This document shows positions 1,071 to 30,107 of a stretch of 48,667 nt of DNA, piece after piece; the stretch's first letter is position 1, and each line of letters opens with the position of its first letter. This stretch comes from Octopus sinensis (lineage: Eukaryota). Location of the stretch: positions 1-48,667 of the forward strand of contig NW_021834468.1 in the NCBI RefSeq assembly GCF_006345805.1. The letters are read 5' to 3'. The translations under genes and the position numbers were made by a program. Below the pieces are notes generated by a model. The model was not told the origin of the DNA. It saw only the letters and a list, made by a program, of their open reading frames with translations, and did no database searches.

Positions 1071-2000
1071 GTCCTCTCCCTCTCACATTTCTTGGGCCTC
1101 TCTTTCTTTAACTCCCACTTTCCCCCCTCATTTATCTCCCCTGTACCTTTCCTTTTAACTCTGAATTTTTTTTCTAATCCTTCAATCCCGCTGCCCCCTA
1201 CCCCTCTCTCCTCCTTCCACATGACTTGTATCCGGCCCTCCATGATCTTTCTTTCTTGGCCTGGCTACCGACTGCCAACACCTCTTATGTCCATCTCCTA
1301 CGCTCCTGCCTTTAGGCTTTCACTTCATAACACGCCAGCTCAATTTGATTCGATCTCAGTCGAAAGACACCTGATGTTATTTTTTGTTGTTTGTATTTGT
1401 AATTGTGTACCATGTTCTCCTATTTTTGTCTTTGTTGTCGTACACATTCGCTAGCTTTCTTACAAAAAGTCTAATGCTCTTAGCATAGACTTTTTGGGGG
1501 GCAGCTAGATCGAACTGTCTTAAGTGTAACTTGCCTTACCTAATTGTTGTTTCTCCTGTTCGCCTTTGCATCGTCTATCTGTCCGAATGTTTTATTGTCC
1601 TCTATTGCGTTTCTGTTCCATTTCATATATATATACACACGCAGACACACGAGTTTCATTCTGTCGGCTTATTTATTTCACATAGACATTGCCGTAGCAG
1701 CAATTAAAATTTAATTACTCGTACAACATTCTCCGTGAATAAACGCCTCTATTACGTGAATTAACAAACACCTTGTTTGGTTCATATGTTTCTAATTCGC
1801 ATACTCACATACACACATGCATATGTACACATTCACACATGCACCTATACACATTCGCACATGAACATATATGACTATAAAACTAGCTGTGAAAATGTAT
1901 ATTATATTTCTGATAAATAACAGCATATTTTGTTCATGTGAATATAAATAATATATATATATATATAACCAAGAAAAAAGCAACAGGAATGGATTAGTAG

Positions 2001-2089
2001 TTTAGTACAATTGTTTCATACCGAGAATAATTTTATTTAAAACTGCAAGTATTGCAGCAAATACAAATGTCCAGTATTCAACAGCTAAA
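2001..2089 (-). ncRNA. Type I hammerhead ribozyme with mutated core (CUGUUGA), probably inactive
   Basis: Minus strand tttag-CTGTTGA-atac...gtat-GAA-ACAATTGT-A-ctaaa; A6>U relative to the 2414-2510 copy. Confidence 0.65.
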
Positions 2090-2413
2090 TCACATATATG
2101 TTTTCCAGACATCCTACAGAGTGTGTCTATCCTCATGAAGTATTAGGAGTGAGTTCTATGAAATTTAAAGTCAAATTATAAGCAGACCAAAATTGCTTTC
2201 TAATGATGCACAGTTTTATAAAAAGTTTTTAAAAAGAGTGTTAACATCCCAGAGAAGGTGAATCCATCCATAAAAGTGCAGATATAATTTCCGGAGACAT
2301 GAGGAAAGTTGTTGATCACACAGTGGTTCAATTTGACTTTAAATTTCATAGAACTCACTCCTAATACTTCATGAGGATAGACACACTCTCTAGGATGTCT
2401 GGAAAACATATAT

Positions 2414-2510
2414 GTAATTTAGCTGATGAATACTGGACATTTGTATTTGCTGCAATACTTGCAGCTTTAAATAAAATTGTTCTTGGTATGAAACAATTGT
2501 ACTAAACTAT
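2414..2510 (+). ncRNA. Type I hammerhead ribozyme
   Basis: Stem I tttag(2418-2422)/ctaaa(2502-2506); CTGATGA 2423-2429; stem II atac/gtat; GAA 2490-2492; palindromic stem III ACAATTGT; GUA triplet with cleavage after 2501. Confidence 0.8.
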
Positions 2511-2645
2511 TAATCCATTCTTGGTTATAATCACCCCACATTTTTTATGGTTGATACCATAAACAATTCTGCTGCATCTAAGTTAAGTGCCATATTCATT
2601 TGAATTCATTGGAATTCACTTGAATCATAATTGTTTTTGCTGACA

Positions 2646-9911: not shown

Positions 9912-10288
9912 AACAAACAAGAACAGACAAACGGATTCAGTCGATTAAATCGACCCCAATGCGCAACTTGTACTTATTTAATCGACACCGAAAGGATGAA
10001 AAGCAAAGTCGATCTCGGCGAAATTTGAACTCAGAACGTAACGACAGACCAAATACCTATTTCTTTACTACCCACAAGGGGCTAAACACAGAGGGGACAA
10101 ACAAGGACAGACAAACGGATTAAGTCGATTACATCGACCTCAGTGTGTAACTGGTACTTATTTAATCGACCCCCAAAGGATGAAAGGAAAAGTCGACCTC
10201 GGCGGAATTTGAACTCAGAACGTAGCGGCAGACGAAATACTGCTTAGCATTTCGTCCGGCATGCTAACGTTTCTGCCAACTCACCGCC
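9912..10288 (-). mobile_element. Family B SINE, dimeric (full unit plus internal restart)
   Basis: Two tandem blocks of TTCTGAGTTCAAATT..GCCGAG..TTTCATCCTTT..GTCGATTAAATAAGTAC on the minus strand. Confidence 0.9.
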
Positions 10289-10339
10289 TTTGTAATAACT
10301 ACAATGCCAATTGTTTTGTCTCAAGATATTCACGGGCAA

Positions 10340-10767
10340 GGCAGTGAGCTGGCAGAAACGTTAGCACGCCGGGCGAAATGCTTAGCAGTATTTCGTCTGT
10401 CGCTACGTTCTGAGTTCAAATTCCGCCGAGGTCGAATTTGCCTTTCATCCTTTCGGGGTCGATTAAATAAGTACCAGTTACGCACTGGGTCGATATAATC
10501 GACTTAATTCGTTTGATTGTCCTTGTTTGTCCTCTCTGTGTGTAGCCCCTTGTGGGCAGTAAAGAAATAAGAAACTTTAGCACGCCGGGCGAAATGCTTA
10601 GCGATATTTCGTCTGTTTTTAATTTCTGAGTTCAAATTCCACCGAGGTCGATTTTACCTTTTATCCTTTCAGGGTCAATAAATTAAGTATCAATTGCGTA
10701 CTGGGGTCGATTTAATCATCTGGCCTCCTCCCGCCAAATTTCGGGCCTTGTGCCTAGAGTAGAAAAG
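10340..10767 (+). mobile_element. Family B SINE, dimeric
   Basis: Full unit 10340-10570 followed by a second unit ending GGCCTTGTGCCTAGAGTAGAAAAG. Confidence 0.9.
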
Positions 10768-22538: not shown

Positions 22539-22865
22539 TATATATATATGTATATATATTTGGGTGCGTATATGTGTTTACAAGTACGTGCTTCTTTGTA
22601 TGTGCTTCAGAAAAATGTGGGGCGAGCTGGCAATGGATGAATTCTTGAGTCATGATCCATTCCGCCATATAGCATGTTTATATATGTATGTATAAACACA
22701 AACACATGCACATCTATATATGTGTATGCCGCAGAGAAAAGTCTCCATAATTTTATTTACTTTTCAATAAACATCTACGTCATATCCTCATGATCTGGCG
22801 GCTGGAAAAAATTTTAAAGAGATGTCTGTGGGATACAATGAACCAAACTCTCATCACTCAAGAAA

Positions 22866-23013
22866 TTCTTTTCTAATCTAGGCACAAGGCCCGAAATTTT
22901 GGGGAGGGGGTACAGTCGATGAGATCGACCCCAGTACGCAGCTAGTACTTAATTTATCGACCCCAAAGAGATGAAAGGCAAAGTCGACCTCGGCGGAATT
23001 TGAACTCAGAATG
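22866..23013 (-). mobile_element. Family B SINE, 3' part
   Basis: Reverse complement of TTCTGAGTTCAAATTCCGCCGAGGTCGACTTTGCCTTTCATC...GGCCTTGTGCCTAG. Confidence 0.85.
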
Positions 23014-23014
23014 T

Positions 23015-23135
23015 AAAATCAATCAAGAAATTTTGAAAAGGAAATTAGGCAAGATAGGTCTCACTCTAAGAAAACCTCGAGGCAGATTTACAAGACAAAT
23101 GTTTGACTGGCAACCTGAGCTAAAGAGAAAATTGG
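23015..23135 (+). pseudogene. Short decayed RTE-type LINE fragment
   Basis: INQEILKRKLGKIGLTLRKP..FTRQMFDWQPELKRK resembles the RTE C-terminal motif RRWxWIGHTLRK...TRQALxWNPxGKR. Confidence 0.55.
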
Positions 23136-23756: not shown

Positions 23757-23863
23757 GTGTGTGGTGTGTTGTGTGTGTGAGGGGATATATATATAACTAT
23801 ATATATATGTGTGTGAGTGGATATAATATATATACATATATATATATGGATATATATACATAC

Positions 23864-23894
<31 letters not shown>

Positions 23895-24044
23895 ATAAAT
23901 AATATAAGAGAGTGGTCACTATATGGCTCACTCTAGCACCAGTTAATTCCAAAAGGTTTCAACCACGAAAATACATGTTTCCCATGAAAGTCGTACGATT
24001 GTTAGCTCACAACACGGACAGGCAAATAAAAAATAACAAAAATA

Positions 24045-24140
24045 CAGATTATTTTGGGACAATTGTTTCGCTATTAATGAATTAAATTAATTTTTACTTA
24101 CAAAAAAAACCATTTGTAGCTCGTCAGCCAAAACTATCTG
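24045..24140 (-). ncRNA. Type I hammerhead ribozyme, array copy 1
   Basis: Minus strand cagatagttttgg-CTGACGA-gcta...tagc-GAA-ACAATTGT-C-ccaaaataatctg; C17 at 24058. Confidence 0.9.
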
Positions 24141-24580
24141 GATGAAATCCACTCAATCACACGCCAGATTTTACCATAATACGAATAAATACGCGTGTGG
24201 TTCAATTGATTACATCCGACGTTATAATTCAAATGCCCCAACCACAGCGCGCCAAACTTTCACGGAAAACAAATACAGCATTTAGAAATAAATGCAGCAT
24301 AATATAATTAATTAATAAGGGTGAGAGAATTAGATACTAATTTAATAGTATATCTATTCAACACCAAGTGGCCTAGTGCTCTCCGAGAAACCTGGATTAT
24401 TATAATATTTTATAACATATTATAATATTTTTACAAAATAAATATAAGAGAGTGGTCACTATATGGCTCACTCTAGCACCATTTAATCCAAAAGGTTTCA
24501 ACCACGAAAATACATGTTCCCATGAAAGTCAGTACGATTGTTAGCTCACACGGACAGGCAAATAAAAAATAACAAAAATA

Positions 24581-24678
24581 CAGATTATTTTGGGACAATT
24601 GTTTCGCTATTAATGAATTAAATGTAATTTTACTTACAAAAAAAAATCCATTTGTAGCTCGTCAGCCAAAAATATCTG
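24581..24678 (-). ncRNA. Type I hammerhead ribozyme, array copy 2
   Basis: Same motif with one stem I variant; C17 at 24594. Confidence 0.88.
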
Positions 24679-25112
24679 GATGAAATCCACTCAATCACAC
24701 GCCAGATTTTACCATAACGATAAATACGCGTGTGGTTCAATTGATTACATCCGACGTTATAATTCAAATGCCCCACCAACAGCGCGCCAAACTTTCACGG
24801 AAAACAAATACAGCATTTAGAAATAAATGCAGCATATTATAATTAATTAATAAGGTGAGAGAATTAGATACTAATTTAATTATAGTATATCTAAACACCC
24901 AAGTGGCCTAGTGCTCCGAGAAACCTGGATTTTATAATATTTTATAACATATTATTAATTTTTACAAAATAAATATAGGAGAGTGGTCACTATATGGCTC
25001 ACTCTAGCACCAGTTAATCCAAAAGGTTTCAACCACGAAAATACATGTTTCCATGAAAGTCAGTACGATTGTTAGCTCACACGGACAGGGCAAATAAAAA
25101 ATAACAAAAATA

Positions 25113-25206
25113 CAGATTATTTTGGGACAATTGTTTCGCTATTAATGAATTAATGTATTTTACTTACAAAAAAAACCATTTGTAGCTCGTCAGCCAAAAC
25201 TATCTG
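25113..25206 (-). ncRNA. Type I hammerhead ribozyme, array copy 3
   Basis: Same motif; C17 at 25126. Confidence 0.9.
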
Positions 25207-25614
25207 GATGAAATCCACTCATCACACGCCAGATTTTACCATAACGATAAATACGCGTGTGGTTCAATTGATTACATCCGACGTTATAATTCAATGCCCC
25301 AACCAACAGCGCGCCAAACTTTCACGGAAAACAAATACAGCATTTAGAAATAAATGCAGCATAATTATAATTAATTAATAAGGGTGAGAGAATTAGATAC
25401 TAATTTAATAGTATATCTATTCAACACCAAGTGGCCTAGTGCTCTCGAGAAACCTGGATTATTATAATATTTTATAACATATTATAATATTTTTTAAAAT
25501 AAATATAAGAGAGTGGGTTGGGGCATTTGAATTATAACGTCGGATGTAATCAATTGAACCACACGCGTATTTATCGTTATGGTAAAATCTGGCGTGTGAT
25601 TGAGTGATTTCATC

Positions 25615-25708
25615 CAGATAGTTTTGGCTGACGAGCTACAAATGGATTTTTTTGAAGTAAATTACATTTAATTCATTAATAGCGAAACAATTGTCCCAAA
25701 ATAATCTG
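25615..25708 (+). ncRNA. Type I hammerhead ribozyme, array copy 4
   Basis: CTGACGA 25628-25634; gcta/tagc stem II; GAA 25684-25686; ACAATTGT 25687-25694; C17 at 25695; 13-bp stem I with one A-A mismatch. Confidence 0.9.
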
Positions 25709-26142
25709 TATTTTTGTTATTTTTTATTTGCCCTGTCGTGTGAGCTAACAATCGTACTGACTTTCATGGGAAACATGTATTTTCGTGGTTGAAACCTTTT
25801 GATTAACTGGTGCTAGAGTGAGCCATATAGTGACCACTCTCTTATATTTATTTTGTAAAAATATTATAATATGTTATAAAATATTATAATATCCAGGTTT
25901 CCGGAGCACTAGGCCACTTGGTGTGTGAATAGATATACTATTAAATTAGTATCTAATTCTCTCACCCTTATTAATTAATTATAATTATGCTGCATTTTTC
26001 TAAATGCTGTATTTGTTTTCCGTGAAAGTTTGGCGCGCTGTTGGTTGGGGCATTTGAATTATAACGTCGGATGTAATCAATTGAACCACACGCGTATTTA
26101 TCGTTATGGTAAAATCTGGCGTGTGATTGAGTGGATTTCATC

Positions 26143-26238
26143 CAGATAGTTTTGGCTGACGAGCTACAAATGGATTTTTTTGTAAGTAAAATTACATTTA
26201 ATTCATTAATAGCGAAACAATTGTCCCAAAATAATCTG
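26143..26238 (+). ncRNA. Type I hammerhead ribozyme, array copy 5
   Basis: CTGACGA 26156-26162; GAA 26214-26216; C17 at 26225, 530 nt after copy 4. Confidence 0.9.
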
Positions 26239-26505
26239 TATTTTTGTTATTTTTTATTTGCCCTGTCCGTGTGAGCTAACAATCGTACTGACTTTCATGG
26301 GAAACATGTATTTTCGTGGTTGAAACCTTTTGGATTAACTGGTGCTAGAGTGAGCCATATAGTGACCACTCTCTTATATTTATTTTGTAAAAATATTATA
26401 ATATGTTATAATATTATAATAATCCAGGTTTCTCGGAGCACTAGGCCACTTGGTGTTGAATAGATATACTATTAAATTAGTATCTAATTCTCTCACCCTT
26501 ATTAT

Positions 26506-26554
<49 letters not shown>

Positions 26555-26872
26555 CATATATGCTGCATATGTATGATATACATATGCACATACACATACA
26601 TACATTTATATATGCAAAGTTGGTATATCAAAAGTTCCCGAAGCAGTTTTACACACACACATACACACACTCACACACGAGTATAAGAATGAGCTATTAG
26701 CTAAATGCGAGATAATTAGTTAAATCTTTAGTGAATTATGTAAAATGAGGCAGGTGTGGTTTTAATAGAGAAACTGGCTGAGAAAGATTACTTTGAACAA
26801 TATTGAGTCAAATGACAGGAATAAAAGCGGTCTTCAATTAGTTAGCGATGGAGGTTCTTAGACGAGTCCATT

Positions 26873-29305
26873 ATGGCGGATCTGGCGCTGGTGGAGATGT
26901 TTGTGATTGAAGTTATGATGGTTGCAGTGGATCTGGTGTTGGTGGATGTGGTGGTGGAGAGGTTTGTGATTGATCATATGATGGTTGCGGTGGATCTGGT
27001 GTTGGCGGATCTGGTGCTGGTGGAGATGTTTGTGATTGAAGTTATGATGGTTGCAGTGGATCTGGTGTTGGTGGATGTGGTGGTGGAGAGGTTTGTGATT
27101 GATCTTATGATGGTTGCGGTGGATCTGGTGTTGGTGGATGTGGTGGTGGAGAGGTTTCTGATTGAAGTTATGATAATTGTGATGGATCTGATGCTGGAAG
27201 TGTTGGTGGAGAGGTTTGTGATTGATCTTATGATGGTTGCGATGGATCTGGTGTTGGTGGATGTGGTGGTGGAGAGGTTTCTGATTGAAGTTATGATAGT
27301 TGTGGTGGATCTGATGATGGAAGTGTTGGTGGAGAGGTTTGTGATTGATCTTATGATGGTTGCAGTGGATCTGGTGTTGGTGGATGTGGTGGTGGAGAGT
27401 TTTCTGATTGAAGTTATGATAGTTGTGGTGGATCTGATGTGGCGGATGTGGGTGGAGAGGTTTGTGATTGATCTTTGATAGTTGCAGTGGATCTGGTGGT
27501 GTGGAGAGTTTCTGATTGAAGTTATGATAGTTGTGGTGGATCTGATGTTGGCGGATGTGGTGGTGGAGAGGTTTGTGATTGATCTTATGATGGTTGCAGT
27601 GGATCTGGTGTTGGTGGATGTGGTGGTGGAGAGGTTTCTGATTGAAGTTATGATAGTTGTGGTGGATCTGATGTTGGCGGATGTGGTGGTGGAGAGGTTT
27701 GTGATTGATCTTATGATGGTTGTGGTGGATCTGGTGTTGGTGGATGTGGTGGTGGAGAGGTTTCTGATTGAAGTTATGATAGTTGTGGTGGATCTGATGT
27801 TGGCGGATGTGGTGGTGGAGAGGTTTGTGATTGATCTTATGATGGTTGCAGTGGATCTGGTGGTGGTGGAGAGGTTTCTGATTGAAGTTATGATAGTTGT
27901 GCTGGATCTGATGTTGGCGGATGTGGTGGTGGAGAGGTTTGTGATTGATCTTATGATGGTTGCGGTGGATCTGTTGGTGGTGGAGAGGTTTCTGATTGAA
28001 GTTATGATAGTTGTAGTGGATCTGATGTTGGTGGATGTGGTGGTGGAGAGGTTTGTGATTGATCTTATGATGGTTACAGTGGATCTGGTGTTGGTGGATC
28101 TGGCGATGGTGGAGATGTTTGTGATTGAAGTTATGATGGTTGCAGTGGATCTGGTGTTGGTGGATGTGGTGGTGGAGAGGTTTCTGATTGAAGTTATGAT
28201 AGTTGTGGTGGATCTGATGTTGGTGGATGTGGTGGTGGAGAGGTTTGTGATTGATCTTATGATGGTTGTGGTGGATCTGGTGTTGGTGGATGTGGTGGTG
28301 GAGAGGTTTCTGATTGAAGTTATGATAGTTGTGGTGGATCTGATGTTGGCGGATGTGGTGGTGGAGAGGTTTGTGATTGATCTTATGATGGTTGCAGTGG
28401 ATCTGGTGGTGGTGGTGGAGAGGTTTCTGATTGAAGTTATGATAGTTGTGGTGGATCTGATGTTGGCGGATGTGGCGGTGGAGAGGTTTGTGATTGATCT
28501 TATGATGGTTGCAGTGGATCTGGTGGTGGTGGAGAGGTTTCTGATTGAAGTTATGATAGTTGTGGTGGATCTGATGTTGGTGGATGTGGTGGTGGAGAGG
28601 TTTGTGATTGATCTTATGATGGTTGCAGTGGATCTGGTGTTGGTGGATGTGGTGGTGGAGAGGTTTCTGATTGAAGTTATGATAGTTGTGGTGGATCTGA
28701 TGTTGGTGGATGTGGTGATGGAGAGGTTTGTGATTGATCTTATGATGGTTGCAGTGGACCTGGTGTTGGTGGATGTGGTGGTGGAGAGGTTTCTGATTGA
28801 AGTTATGATAGTTGTGGTGGATCTGATGTTGGTGGATGTGGTGGTGGCGAGGTTTGTGATTGATCTTATGATGGTTGCGGTGGATCTGGTGGTGGTGGAG
28901 AGGTTTCTGATTGAAGTTATGATAGTTGTGGTGGATCTGATGTTGGTGGATGTGGTGGTGGCGAGGTTTGTGATTGATCTTATGATGGTTGCAGTGGATC
29001 TGGTGTTGGTGGATCTGGCGATGGTGGAGATGTTTGTGATTGAAGTTATGATGGTTGCAGTGGATCTGGTGTTGGTGGATGTGGTGGTGGAGAGGTTTCT
29101 GATTGAAGTTATGATAGTTGTGGTGGATCTGATGTTGGTGGATGTGGTGGTGGAGAGGTTTGTGATTGATCTTATGATGGTTGTGGTGGATCTGGTGTTG
29201 GTGGATGTGGTGGTGGAGAGGTTTCTTATTGAAGTTATGATAGTTGTGGTGGATCTGATGATGGAAGTGTTGGTGGAGAGGTTTGTGATTGATCTTATGA
29301 TGGTT
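26873..29305. repeat. 63-bp minisatellite with alternating A/B units (126-bp dimer) and 48/66-bp variants
   Basis: Units GTGGATCTGGTGTTGGTGGATGTGGTGGTGGAGAGGTTTCTGATTGAAGTTATGATAGTTGTG and GTGGATCTGATGTTGGYGGATGTGGTGGTGGAGAGGTTTGTGATTGATCTTATGATGGTTGCA. Confidence 0.95.
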
Positions 29306-29456
29306 GATGGTGGTAGTAGCGATGGTTGTGTATGGTGTATGTTGTACGTTGTTGATAATGATGATGGTAGTGGCGGGATGGTGGTGGTGATGATAATGAT
29401 AATAACGATAATTGTAGTGGGGGAGTGGAAGTGGTAGTGGCGATGATGAAGATGAC

Positions 29457-29490
<34 letters not shown>

Positions 29491-29504
29491 CTAATGATGA
29501 TGAT

Positions 29505-30107
29505 GAGGAAATTGGCACAACGCGAATACAAAAGACGCTATGGCAATGTGACATGAATGATCCATTGGGAGCTCTGTGGAAATATCGGCCTACAAAGAAC
29601 AAAGATGTTGTGAGGAAACTGCTGAAGGACTCACGGAAAATGAGAATTGCAAAATCCTGAGGGACGCAATGATCCAGTGCAATCACCTGACCATACATAG
29701 GAAACCGGATATTGTTGTGGAGAATAACACAGAAGGTACATGTATGATAATCGACAAAGTATGCCCCGGTGATAACAGGATCGGTGTGAAAGAAGTCGAA
29801 GAAAAATAAACAACTATGACGATTTGAAGTAGGAAATATGAAGGTTGTGGTCAATGAAGAGAGTAGACATGATACCAATAGGAATTGGTGCACTTGGAAG
29901 TATCAGCACTCAACTCCCAGCATGGCTGAAAAAGATTGGTGCCAGTGTGAAGGTAGAACATCTAAAAAATCAGCATTGCTTGGAACTGCCAACATTCTTT
30001 GCAGGGTTCTTGAAACATAACCAGTAAACAAGTGTCACCTTAGTCTGCTGGCTGTGGACAGCTGACACTTCCCATCATACCCAGCAAAATAAGCTATGAG
30101 TTTTCAT

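What the first reader, a model, noticed from the sequence alone, without database searches (positions are those of the whole stretch)
25502..25545. Strand switch makes the ribozyme array a head-to-head ~1-kb palindrome with both 3' ends pointing into (TA)n
Seen: the fourth unit stops after AATATAAGAGAGTGG and continues with essentially no spacer as the reverse complement from a mid-unit position. The ribozyme-sense strands diverge from this junction, and the two outer ends stop at different AT-rich points of the monomer. Inference: both strands of a break in a (TA)n tract were primed on concatemeric RNA and the cDNAs joined centrally, like the inverted pLTRs of Penelope elements. Any read-through transcript would fold into ~1 kb of dsRNA and contain active-sense hammerheads whichever strand is transcribed.
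Basis: partly seen in the sequence, partly recalled or inferred. Interest (0 to 1): 0.7.

Follow-up and report, generated by a model that had tools for sequence, protein, structure and literature searches.

The report
Two-ended Penelope-style retrozyme insertion
This back-to-back repeat is one of hundreds of copies of a protein-free jumping element with a hammerhead ribozyme motif that lands in TA repeats, usually as two arms that each end at a different fixed site, a footprint likely left by a borrowed Penelope-type reverse transcriptase copying one RNA from both sides of a DNA break.

Summary
The strand switch at 25516/25517 is real, but it is the family's usual form, not a one-off. The 535-nt unit has a type I hammerhead motif and no ORF (retrozyme-like); the genome holds at least 554 exact 'A' ends and 356 exact 'B' ends running into (TA)n. 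Of 121 elements examined, 85 are head-to-head. All 80 with two classifiable ends pair one A end (about 288 nt after the ribozyme cut) with one B end (about 161 nt); none is A+A or B+B. Junctions are scattered, and both arms usually share one haplotype. Two autonomous Penelope-like (PLE) families here show the same plan with shorter tails (roughly 35-45 nt); the retrozyme's is 127 nt. Best reading: a PLE enzyme primes both strands of a (TA)n break at two sites of one RNA, probably a circle. L1-type twin priming is not supported, fold-back self-priming is not excluded, and the window's own junction lacks read confirmation. Inverted copies and one-sided tails are published for PLEs; I found no report of them for retrozymes. 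This scan has already noted the pattern on other DNA of this genome.

The parts
23785..23893 (.). Left (TA)n-rich target tract
   Evidence: TRF AT array 23785-23906; sequence
23894..25516 (-). B arm: 3.04 units, ribozyme-sense on the minus strand; 3' end at the fixed B site (monomer ~161), 5' truncation at monomer 141
24052..24133 (-). Type I hammerhead motif, predicted cut 24058/24057
   Evidence: motif scan; unit phase
24588..24671 (-). Type I hammerhead motif, predicted cut 24594/24593
25120..25199 (-). Type I hammerhead motif, predicted cut 25126/25125
25516..25517 (.). Head-to-head junction (monomer 141 joined to 353), no insert, 0-1 nt microhomology, unique in the assembly
25517..26511 (+). 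A arm: 1.9 units, ribozyme-sense on the plus strand; 5' truncation at monomer 353, 3' end at the fixed A site (monomer ~288)
25622..25701 (+). Type I hammerhead motif, predicted cut 25695/25696
26150..26231 (+). Type I hammerhead motif (CUGACGA core, long helix II, GAAA, palindromic minimal helix III, GUC), predicted cut 26225/26226
26385..26511 (+). 127-nt 'tail' between the B and A sites, present at the outer end of the A arm only (approximate bounds)
   Evidence: end alignment of 40 loci
26512..26561 (.). Right (TA)n target tract
   Evidence: TRF 26513-26561

Best explanation
The array is one insertion of a young, protein-free, 535-nt hammerhead-motif retroelement whose head-to-head form with one A end and one B end is the family's usual footprint, likely made when a borrowed Penelope-type RT/GIY-YIG enzyme nicked both strands of a (TA)n tract and started one cDNA at each of two fixed sites of the same RNA, probably a circular monomer. 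Shown: two fixed 3' ends in (TA)n, strict A+B pairing, scattered 5' truncations, arms that run across ribozyme cut sites and mostly share one haplotype, and the same plan in two autonomous PLE families of this genome. Inferred: target-primed starts at A and B, one complex (possibly a dimer) on one RNA, reverse transcription going round a circle several times, and joining of the two cDNA ends with little or no microhomology. The N2 family is a weak candidate for the enzyme donor.
For: Fixed ends: 554 exact A-end and 356 exact B-end matches, reversed-pattern controls 0; 155 of 156 ends of inverted loci are followed by TA units. Pairing: of 121 elements, 80 are inverted A+B, none A+A or B+B, 5 inverted with one odd end, 19 A-only and 17 B-only (L085 completed by L232). 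Each site also ends an insertion by itself: 31 of 36 one-armed elements have (TA)n on the 5' side too, and 7 carry a short stub of the opposite end type, none of the same type (stub motifs chosen after viewing the flanks). One template: arm haplotypes disagree at 16 of 131 informative sites within loci against 93% between loci (first 83 loci); 16 of 79 inverted loci have both arms ending in the same register (lenA-lenB = 127 +/- 20) against 2.7 expected; arm lengths correlate (rho 0.58). One-unit template: with at least 3 units covered, 150 variants lie in all units against 15 in a subset; 11 variants fixed in both arms are private to one of 83 loci; 111 of 158 arms cross a cut site, and 5' ends are not enriched at it (5 of 158, 5.9 expected). 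PLE link: N2 has 11 long and 14 short ends among 25 copies; L233 and L234 (N2) and L157 (N1) are head-to-head with one long and one short end. PMC11167929 (abstract and main text read, parts 1-2 of 4): a purified PLE protein nicks and extends both strands, starts internally at two sites that bracket the tail, and is predicted to be a dimer.
Against: The same-register excess is weak in the fresh C2 sample alone (3 of 20 against 1.1 expected, p 0.07). Shared haplotypes could also come from a homogeneous source array or from gene conversion within the palindrome, and 'private' means private among the 83 elements sampled at that step, out of several hundred. Some arrays are mixed (L055, L060, L052, L085; 18 polymorphic cases), which one monomer circle does not explain without later changes. 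In PMC11167929 unprocessed RNA was the main substrate and ribozyme cleavage was not needed. The 127-nt tail is 3-4 times the published 30-40 bp, and the B site does not align with N2's short end. No partner shares clear DNA homology: the N2 match is AT-rich, chosen after inspection, and one control window also beat all its shuffles. The hammerhead is absent from the 150 Rfam rows shown, and the active fold is 4.6 kcal/mol above the predicted minimum.
Confidence: 0.6

Rival explanations
1. Same two-site priming on both strands, but the template is an uncleaved linear multimer read from an existing array.
For: Arms cross cut sites freely (111 of 158); some arrays are mixed; unprocessed RNA is the main substrate in vitro in PMC11167929; helix III is minimal, so cleavage may be slow (PMC4209133, passages).
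Against: Variants are mostly array-wide rather than unit-specific (150 against 15), and the sense-strand A>G excess lies in array-wide variants (24 A>G against 12 T>C), not in single-unit ones (7 against 14); this points to a one-unit bottleneck.
Confidence: 0.2
2. Fold-back or self-priming: one cDNA (or an antisense template, as proposed in PMC3846280) snaps back and is copied, giving a palindrome that later loses its centre unevenly.
For: Excess of near-symmetric junctions (16 of 79), several at short palindromes (L099, L112, L082, L102); shared haplotypes and correlated arm lengths follow directly; microhomology of 2 nt or more in 29 of 69 junctions against about 19% by chance.
Against: 63 of 79 junctions are asymmetric, and the B arm is longer than the A arm in 33 of 79; among the 16 same-register loci the B arm reaches further 5' in 7 and the A arm in 5; 17 B-only insertions show B acting as an end in its own right. 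Uneven central deletion could still produce the length patterns, so this rival is not excluded.
Confidence: 0.14
3. Classical L1-type twin priming: the first cDNA runs until it meets a second primer annealed at an internal AT-rich site (mechanism recalled, not read here).
For: Same polarity (both 3' ends outward) and AT-rich priming sites.
Against: It predicts that one arm stops near the other's priming site: seen in 9 of 79 and 5 of 79, against 9.0 expected by chance for each; the arms overlap in sequence instead of being complementary parts of one pass.
Confidence: 0.04
4. Long-read fold-back chimera or assembly artefact at this locus.
For: The window is a whole 48.7-kb contig whose units carry many indels.
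Against: A fold-back chimera would mirror the end and the flank; here the ends and flanks differ. The same plan recurs at 80 loci, most on contigs of tens of Mb, with different junctions. Contigs of public runs hold other head-to-head joints at low, single-locus-like depth (14 of the 15 listed joints, 28 not shown; one opposite-polarity joint in table 5c).
Confidence: 0.02

Closest known systems
Metazoan non-LTR retrozymes (PMC7229834, passages; bioRxiv 10.64898/2026.07.22.740005, parts 1-3 of 5 read: abstract to discussion)
   Same: Tandem non-coding units of low GC, each with a type I hammerhead motif with a minimal palindromic helix III; dispersed arrays; proposed dependence on PLEs.
   Different: Those papers describe head-to-tail tandems: 'inverted' and 'orientation' occur 0 times in the main text of PMC7229834, and the parts of the preprint that I read describe no inverted arms or fixed ends. 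Here most insertions are two-armed with two fixed ends. Circles and cleavage were shown there and are untested here. Supplements were not seen.
EN+ Penelope-like elements: inverted 5'-truncated copy and one-sided 30-40 bp tail (PMC8557442 and PMC3846280, passages)
   Same: Head-to-head inverted 5'-truncated copy, tail at only one end, (TA)n preference, hammerhead in the repeated unit.
   Different: No ORF; both arms are multimers; the tail is 127 nt; the strict long+short pairing is counted here (80 of 80).
Poseidon PAc of the green anole in vitro (PMC11167929, main text parts 1-2 of 4)
   Same: Two internal start sites that bracket the tail; both target strands nicked and extended; AT-rich targets.
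   Different: Its sites are adjacent, its template is linear, and it makes no statement on A+B pairing in the parts read; here the sites are 127 nt apart and the evidence is genomic only.
Autonomous PLE families N1 (L065, 765-aa ORF) and N2 (L164, 775-aa open frame) in this genome; Neptune/Nematis-type domain order
   Same: (TA)n targets, two alternative 3' ends, head-to-head copies with one long and one short end.
   Different: Tails of roughly 35-45 nt; N1 shows no similarity to the retrozyme (113 of 500 shuffles reach its score), N2 only a weak one (0 of 500, with a caveat). No tree was built, so the clade name rests on domain order.

Membership tests
Non-LTR retrozyme | Tandem units of a few hundred nt, each with a type I hammerhead | tested here: met
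   535-nt unit; 5 motifs in the window; 236 of 286 units with the 3' half carry the full core. Found by motif and fold; no hammerhead among the 150 Rfam rows shown of 226.
Non-LTR retrozyme | No protein coded | tested here: met
   No stop-to-stop ORF of 100 aa or more overlaps 23894-26511.
Non-LTR retrozyme | Dispersed, mobile copies | tested here: met
   At least 554 A ends and 356 B ends over many contigs; the best-matching units are 90-97% alike over most of their length.
Non-LTR retrozyme | Self-cleavage of the RNA | not testable with these tools
   Active fold -23.7 against minimum -28.3 kcal/mol; a two-copy fold did not give the helix III dimer.
Non-LTR retrozyme | Expressed as circular RNA | tested here: inconclusive
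   Indirect only: array-wide variants. No RNA reads were laid.
PLE-mobilised element | Inverted 5'-truncated copy, head-to-head | tested here: met
   85 of 121 elements; 53 of the 82 picked by end pattern on C1 and C2.
PLE-mobilised element | Tail at only one end | tested here: met
   80 of 80 A+B; length 127 nt, outside the published 30-40 bp.
PLE-mobilised element | Terminal sequence shared with an autonomous PLE | tested here: inconclusive
   Weak end-registered match to the N2 3' region; none to N1 or to single loci of other GIY-YIG families, and none via a hammerhead pattern. Only the 30 best GIY-YIG loci and their families were looked at.
Autonomous PLE | RT and GIY-YIG ORF | tested here: not met
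   No ORF in the array.
L1-type twin-primed inversion | One arm ends near the other's priming site; arms do not overlap | tested here: not met
   9 of 79 and 5 of 79 against 9.0 expected.
PLE-mobilised element | Target-site duplication (optional in PLEs) | not testable with these tools
   Both flanks are (TA)n; no second copy of the left flank, and so no empty allele, turned up among the scored candidates.

The most novel reading that the evidence does not exclude
A Penelope-type reverse transcriptase dimer grips one circular ribozyme RNA, starts a cDNA from each side of a (TA)n break at two sites 127 nt apart, and both copies run round the circle before being joined; each array is the print of one RNA molecule, A-to-I edits included. 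This would explain the inverted copies and one-sided tails of PLEs as coordinated dual priming rather than self-priming.
Probability: 0.3. Interest if true: 0.75.

Novelty: new variant of a known kind. Interest (0 to 1): 0.5.

Why it matters
How PLEs make tandem and inverted insertions and one-sided tails is named as an open task in PMC8557442, and retrozyme mobilisation by PLEs is proposed but not shown (bioRxiv 10.64898/2026.07.22.740005). A young family with hundreds of copies, an unusually long and easily scored tail, and strict A+B pairing lets dual priming, fold-back and circle-versus-multimer models be told apart by counting, and gives a defined RNA and a candidate enzyme for an in vitro test. 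The locus itself is one ordinary copy of that family, and its dsRNA potential is shared with many sister loci.

Tried and rejected
Rfam scan: only microsatellite-driven miRNA-type hits among the 150 rows shown; not used. Run search: no RNA holder listed on record; no evidence on expression. The window's own junction was not bridged in the 32 pieces listed, of 220 laid from four runs; these may be other individuals and a hole proves nothing, so it counts neither way. No empty allele or second copy of the left flank among 40 scored candidates. The family PF26215 is not in the library; PF01541 was used. Search for a parent by a hammerhead pattern with a shorter helix II gave 10 loci, none with a PLE ORF match; one is a deleted retrozyme copy. 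Local alignment of the monomer to 11 GIY-YIG loci gave scores within the shuffle range. First junction calls by exact extension were disturbed by substitutions and replaced by local alignment, which may inflate microhomology. Rows dropped before counts: L066 (duplicate of L065) and L108 (duplicate of L109, cut by the fetch); five inverted loci with an odd end and L085 were left out of the 79-junction statistics. The first 40 loci were picked by similarity and lean to long young arrays; the C1/C2 set was picked by exact end patterns and misses diverged ends. A two-copy fold did not reproduce the dimeric hammerhead. Rejected: unique event, L1-type twin priming, read chimera. Literature searches found no paper on inverted or two-ended retrozyme insertions; PMC13282606 has 0 occurrences of hammerhead, ribozyme or retrozyme in its main text. 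Subscription journals, Repbase entries and all supplements were not seen and could hold such a description.

Full report
Observation. The array spans about 23894-26511 between two TA-rich tracts. It is built from a 535-nt unit that carries a type I hammerhead motif: helix I, CUGACGA core, long helix II, GAAA, a minimal palindromic helix III and GUC. Counting from the predicted cut, the left arm is sense on the minus strand and covers 3.04 units; the right arm is sense on the plus strand and covers 1.9 units. They meet at 25516/25517, monomer 141 against 353, with no insert and 0-1 nt of microhomology. The arms pair at 96% over 1019 columns around a loop of about 205 nt. The junction is unique in the assembly. 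No ORF of 100 aa overlaps the array. Rfam shows no hammerhead among the 150 rows listed of 226, and the active fold lies 4.6 kcal/mol above the predicted minimum, so the ribozyme is a motif-level call.

The inversion is the family's rule. A search of the own genome scored 40 of 886 candidates; 33 of these 40 loci are head-to-head. Their outer ends fall at two fixed points, A at about 288 and B at about 161, each followed by (TA)n. Exact patterns find 554 A ends and 356 B ends, with reversed controls at 0. To lessen bias I fetched loci by end pattern along C1 and part of C2. After dropping two duplicates, 121 elements remain: 80 inverted A+B, none A+A or B+B, 5 inverted with one odd end (two end elsewhere in TA, two break off, one meets an assembly gap), 19 A-only and 17 B-only; among the 82 picked by end pattern, 53 are inverted. 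Of 156 scored ends of inverted loci, 155 run into TA units; 31 of 36 one-armed elements have (TA)n on the 5' side too, and 7 carry a stub of the opposite end type (motifs chosen after viewing).

Not an artefact, as far as can be told. A read fold-back would mirror both end and flank; here they differ. Contigs of public runs hold other joints of the same polarity at depths of 38-92 against about 100,000 for the repeat (14 of 15 listed, 28 not shown, one opposite joint in a side table). The window's own junction has no read confirmation.

Junctions. For 79 A+B loci, 5' ends are scattered and not enriched at the ribozyme cut (5 of 158, 5.9 expected), and 111 of 158 arms cross a cut site, so the template was not a cleaved linear monomer. 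Neither arm tends to stop at the other's priming site (9 and 5 of 79, 9.0 expected), which argues against L1-type twin priming. Microhomology is modestly raised (2 nt or more in 29 of 69, about 19% by chance; 10 junctions have inserts). In 16 of 79 loci both arms end in the same register (2.7 expected), and arm lengths correlate (rho 0.58); in the fresh C2 sample alone the excess is weak (3 of 20 against 1.1, p 0.07). The B arm is the longer in 33 of 79, as in the window. A simple fold-back cannot make such loci unless the palindrome later lost its centre unevenly.

One template. Arms of one locus disagree at 16 of 131 informative sites, arms of different loci at 93% (first 83 loci). With three or more units covered, 150 variants sit in all units and 15 in a subset; 11 variants fixed in both arms are private to one locus. 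This favours a one-unit bottleneck such as a circle, as proposed for PLE RNAs in PMC4209133 (passages), but homogeneous source arrays or gene conversion could mimic it, and a few arrays are mixed. Following a lead from note e1-8807236, I found A>G on the sense strand in 24 of 71 array-wide variants against 12 T>C (p 0.003), but in only 7 of 122 single-unit variants; four A>G sites recur on two or more haplotype backgrounds. G>A is also above C>T (10 against 5), and neighbour preference is weak, so editing is a hint only; structural tolerance of G-U pairs or enzyme bias are alternatives.

The likely enzyme. [quoted passage not shown] Families N1 and N2 both end in (TA)n at two alternative sites roughly 35-45 nt apart (N2: 11 long, 14 short of 25), and the three head-to-head copies whose two ends I could read (L157, L233, L234) pair a long with a short end. 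After the lead in note e1-8806981 that a particular PLE is the donor, I aligned ends: the 184 nt at the N2 3' end match monomer 111-289 in register with the A end (0 of 500 dinucleotide shuffles), N1 does not (113 of 500); but the region is AT-rich, one control window also beat all of its 100 shuffles, and B does not align with N2's short end. N2 is a candidate, not a shown partner.

Mechanism. Most likely a PLE protein bound to the retrozyme RNA nicks both strands of (TA)n, starts one cDNA at A and one at B, copies round the unit one or more times on each side, and the two cDNA ends are joined. If only one start succeeds, a one-armed insertion results. This matches the in vitro behaviour of PAc (two internal starts bracketing the tail, both strands extended, predicted dimer; PMC11167929), and differs from the self-priming reading of head-to-head palindromes in PMC3846280 (passages). 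Ends, pairing and haplotype sharing are shown; priming, dimer, circle and joining are inferred.

The dsRNA claim. A plus-strand read-through of 25000-26030 is predicted to form a long duplex that takes in the hammerhead at 25622. Either strand meets the antisense arm first, so most hammerheads would be buried; sense transcription from within would diverge. No expression data were obtained.

Novelty. Inverted 5'-truncated copies and one-sided 30-40 bp tails are published for PLEs (PMC8557442, PMC3846280), and retrozymes as non-autonomous PLE derivatives are proposed (bioRxiv 10.64898/2026.07.22.740005). In seven searches I found no account of two-armed retrozyme insertions, strict long+short pairing or a 127-nt tail; supplements and subscription journals were not seen. 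The scan's own notes describe this footprint for several hammerhead repeats elsewhere in this genome, one with ~534-nt units; these are unchecked AI notes and not independent support, and they name the host as an octopus, which I did not test. Verdict: a real feature, a new variant of a known kind, ordinary as a locus and useful as a test system.

Noticed in passing
Monomer positions 79, 173, 239, 336 and others, across 121 elements: Array-wide variants are enriched for sense-strand A>G (24 against 12 T>C) and some recur on different haplotype backgrounds; possible A-to-I edits copied back into DNA.
   Followed up: partly
L065:294-2588 (+), L066, L145-L147: Young PLE family N1 with an intact 765-aa RT-linker-GIY-YIG ORF, repeated CCAAT/CRE-like motifs (labels recalled) in the 3' region, a hammerhead-like motif with a UUGAUAA core, and two 3' ends; in L047 a truncated N1 copy and a retrozyme arm share one TA tract.
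   Followed up: partly
L164:3845-6169 (-), L165-L189, L233, L234: Young PLE family N2 (775-aa open frame, 47% identical to N1) with two 3' ends and head-to-head copies; candidate enzyme donor.
   Followed up: partly
window 26858-29902 (-): A 63/126-nt tandem repeat open for 1014 codons as a His/Gln/Asn-rich frame (other frames are also open); may be a coding repeat or a by-product of the repeat.
   Followed up: no
window 22860-23020: A ~155-nt dispersed repeat (SINE-like) with thousands of candidates in the genome.
   Followed up: no
window 1984-2523 and 10127-10717: Other inverted repeats of 150-194 nt, one group apparently built from the same short dispersed repeat.
   Followed up: no
L048:4187-4286, L105:8379-8409, L041:4463-4477: Junction inserts that look like short repeated pieces of the two arm ends, suggesting repeated template jumps during joining.
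   Followed up: no
B ends of L037, L044, L051, L054, L060: Stuttered AT-rich units between the B end and the (TA)n tract, perhaps repeated priming; assembly error in AT-only sequence is not excluded.
   Followed up: no
L098 and L202: Inverted loci whose second arm ends in (TA)n at non-standard positions (about 397 and 114), rare exceptions to the B site.
   Followed up: no
L065/L066, L108/L109: Pairs of loci with identical junctions, so segmental or assembly duplicates.
   Followed up: partly
L236, L238, L240-L244: Other hammerhead motifs with the same palindromic helix III but different helix II, most followed closely by TA-rich sequence; further small families.
   Followed up: no
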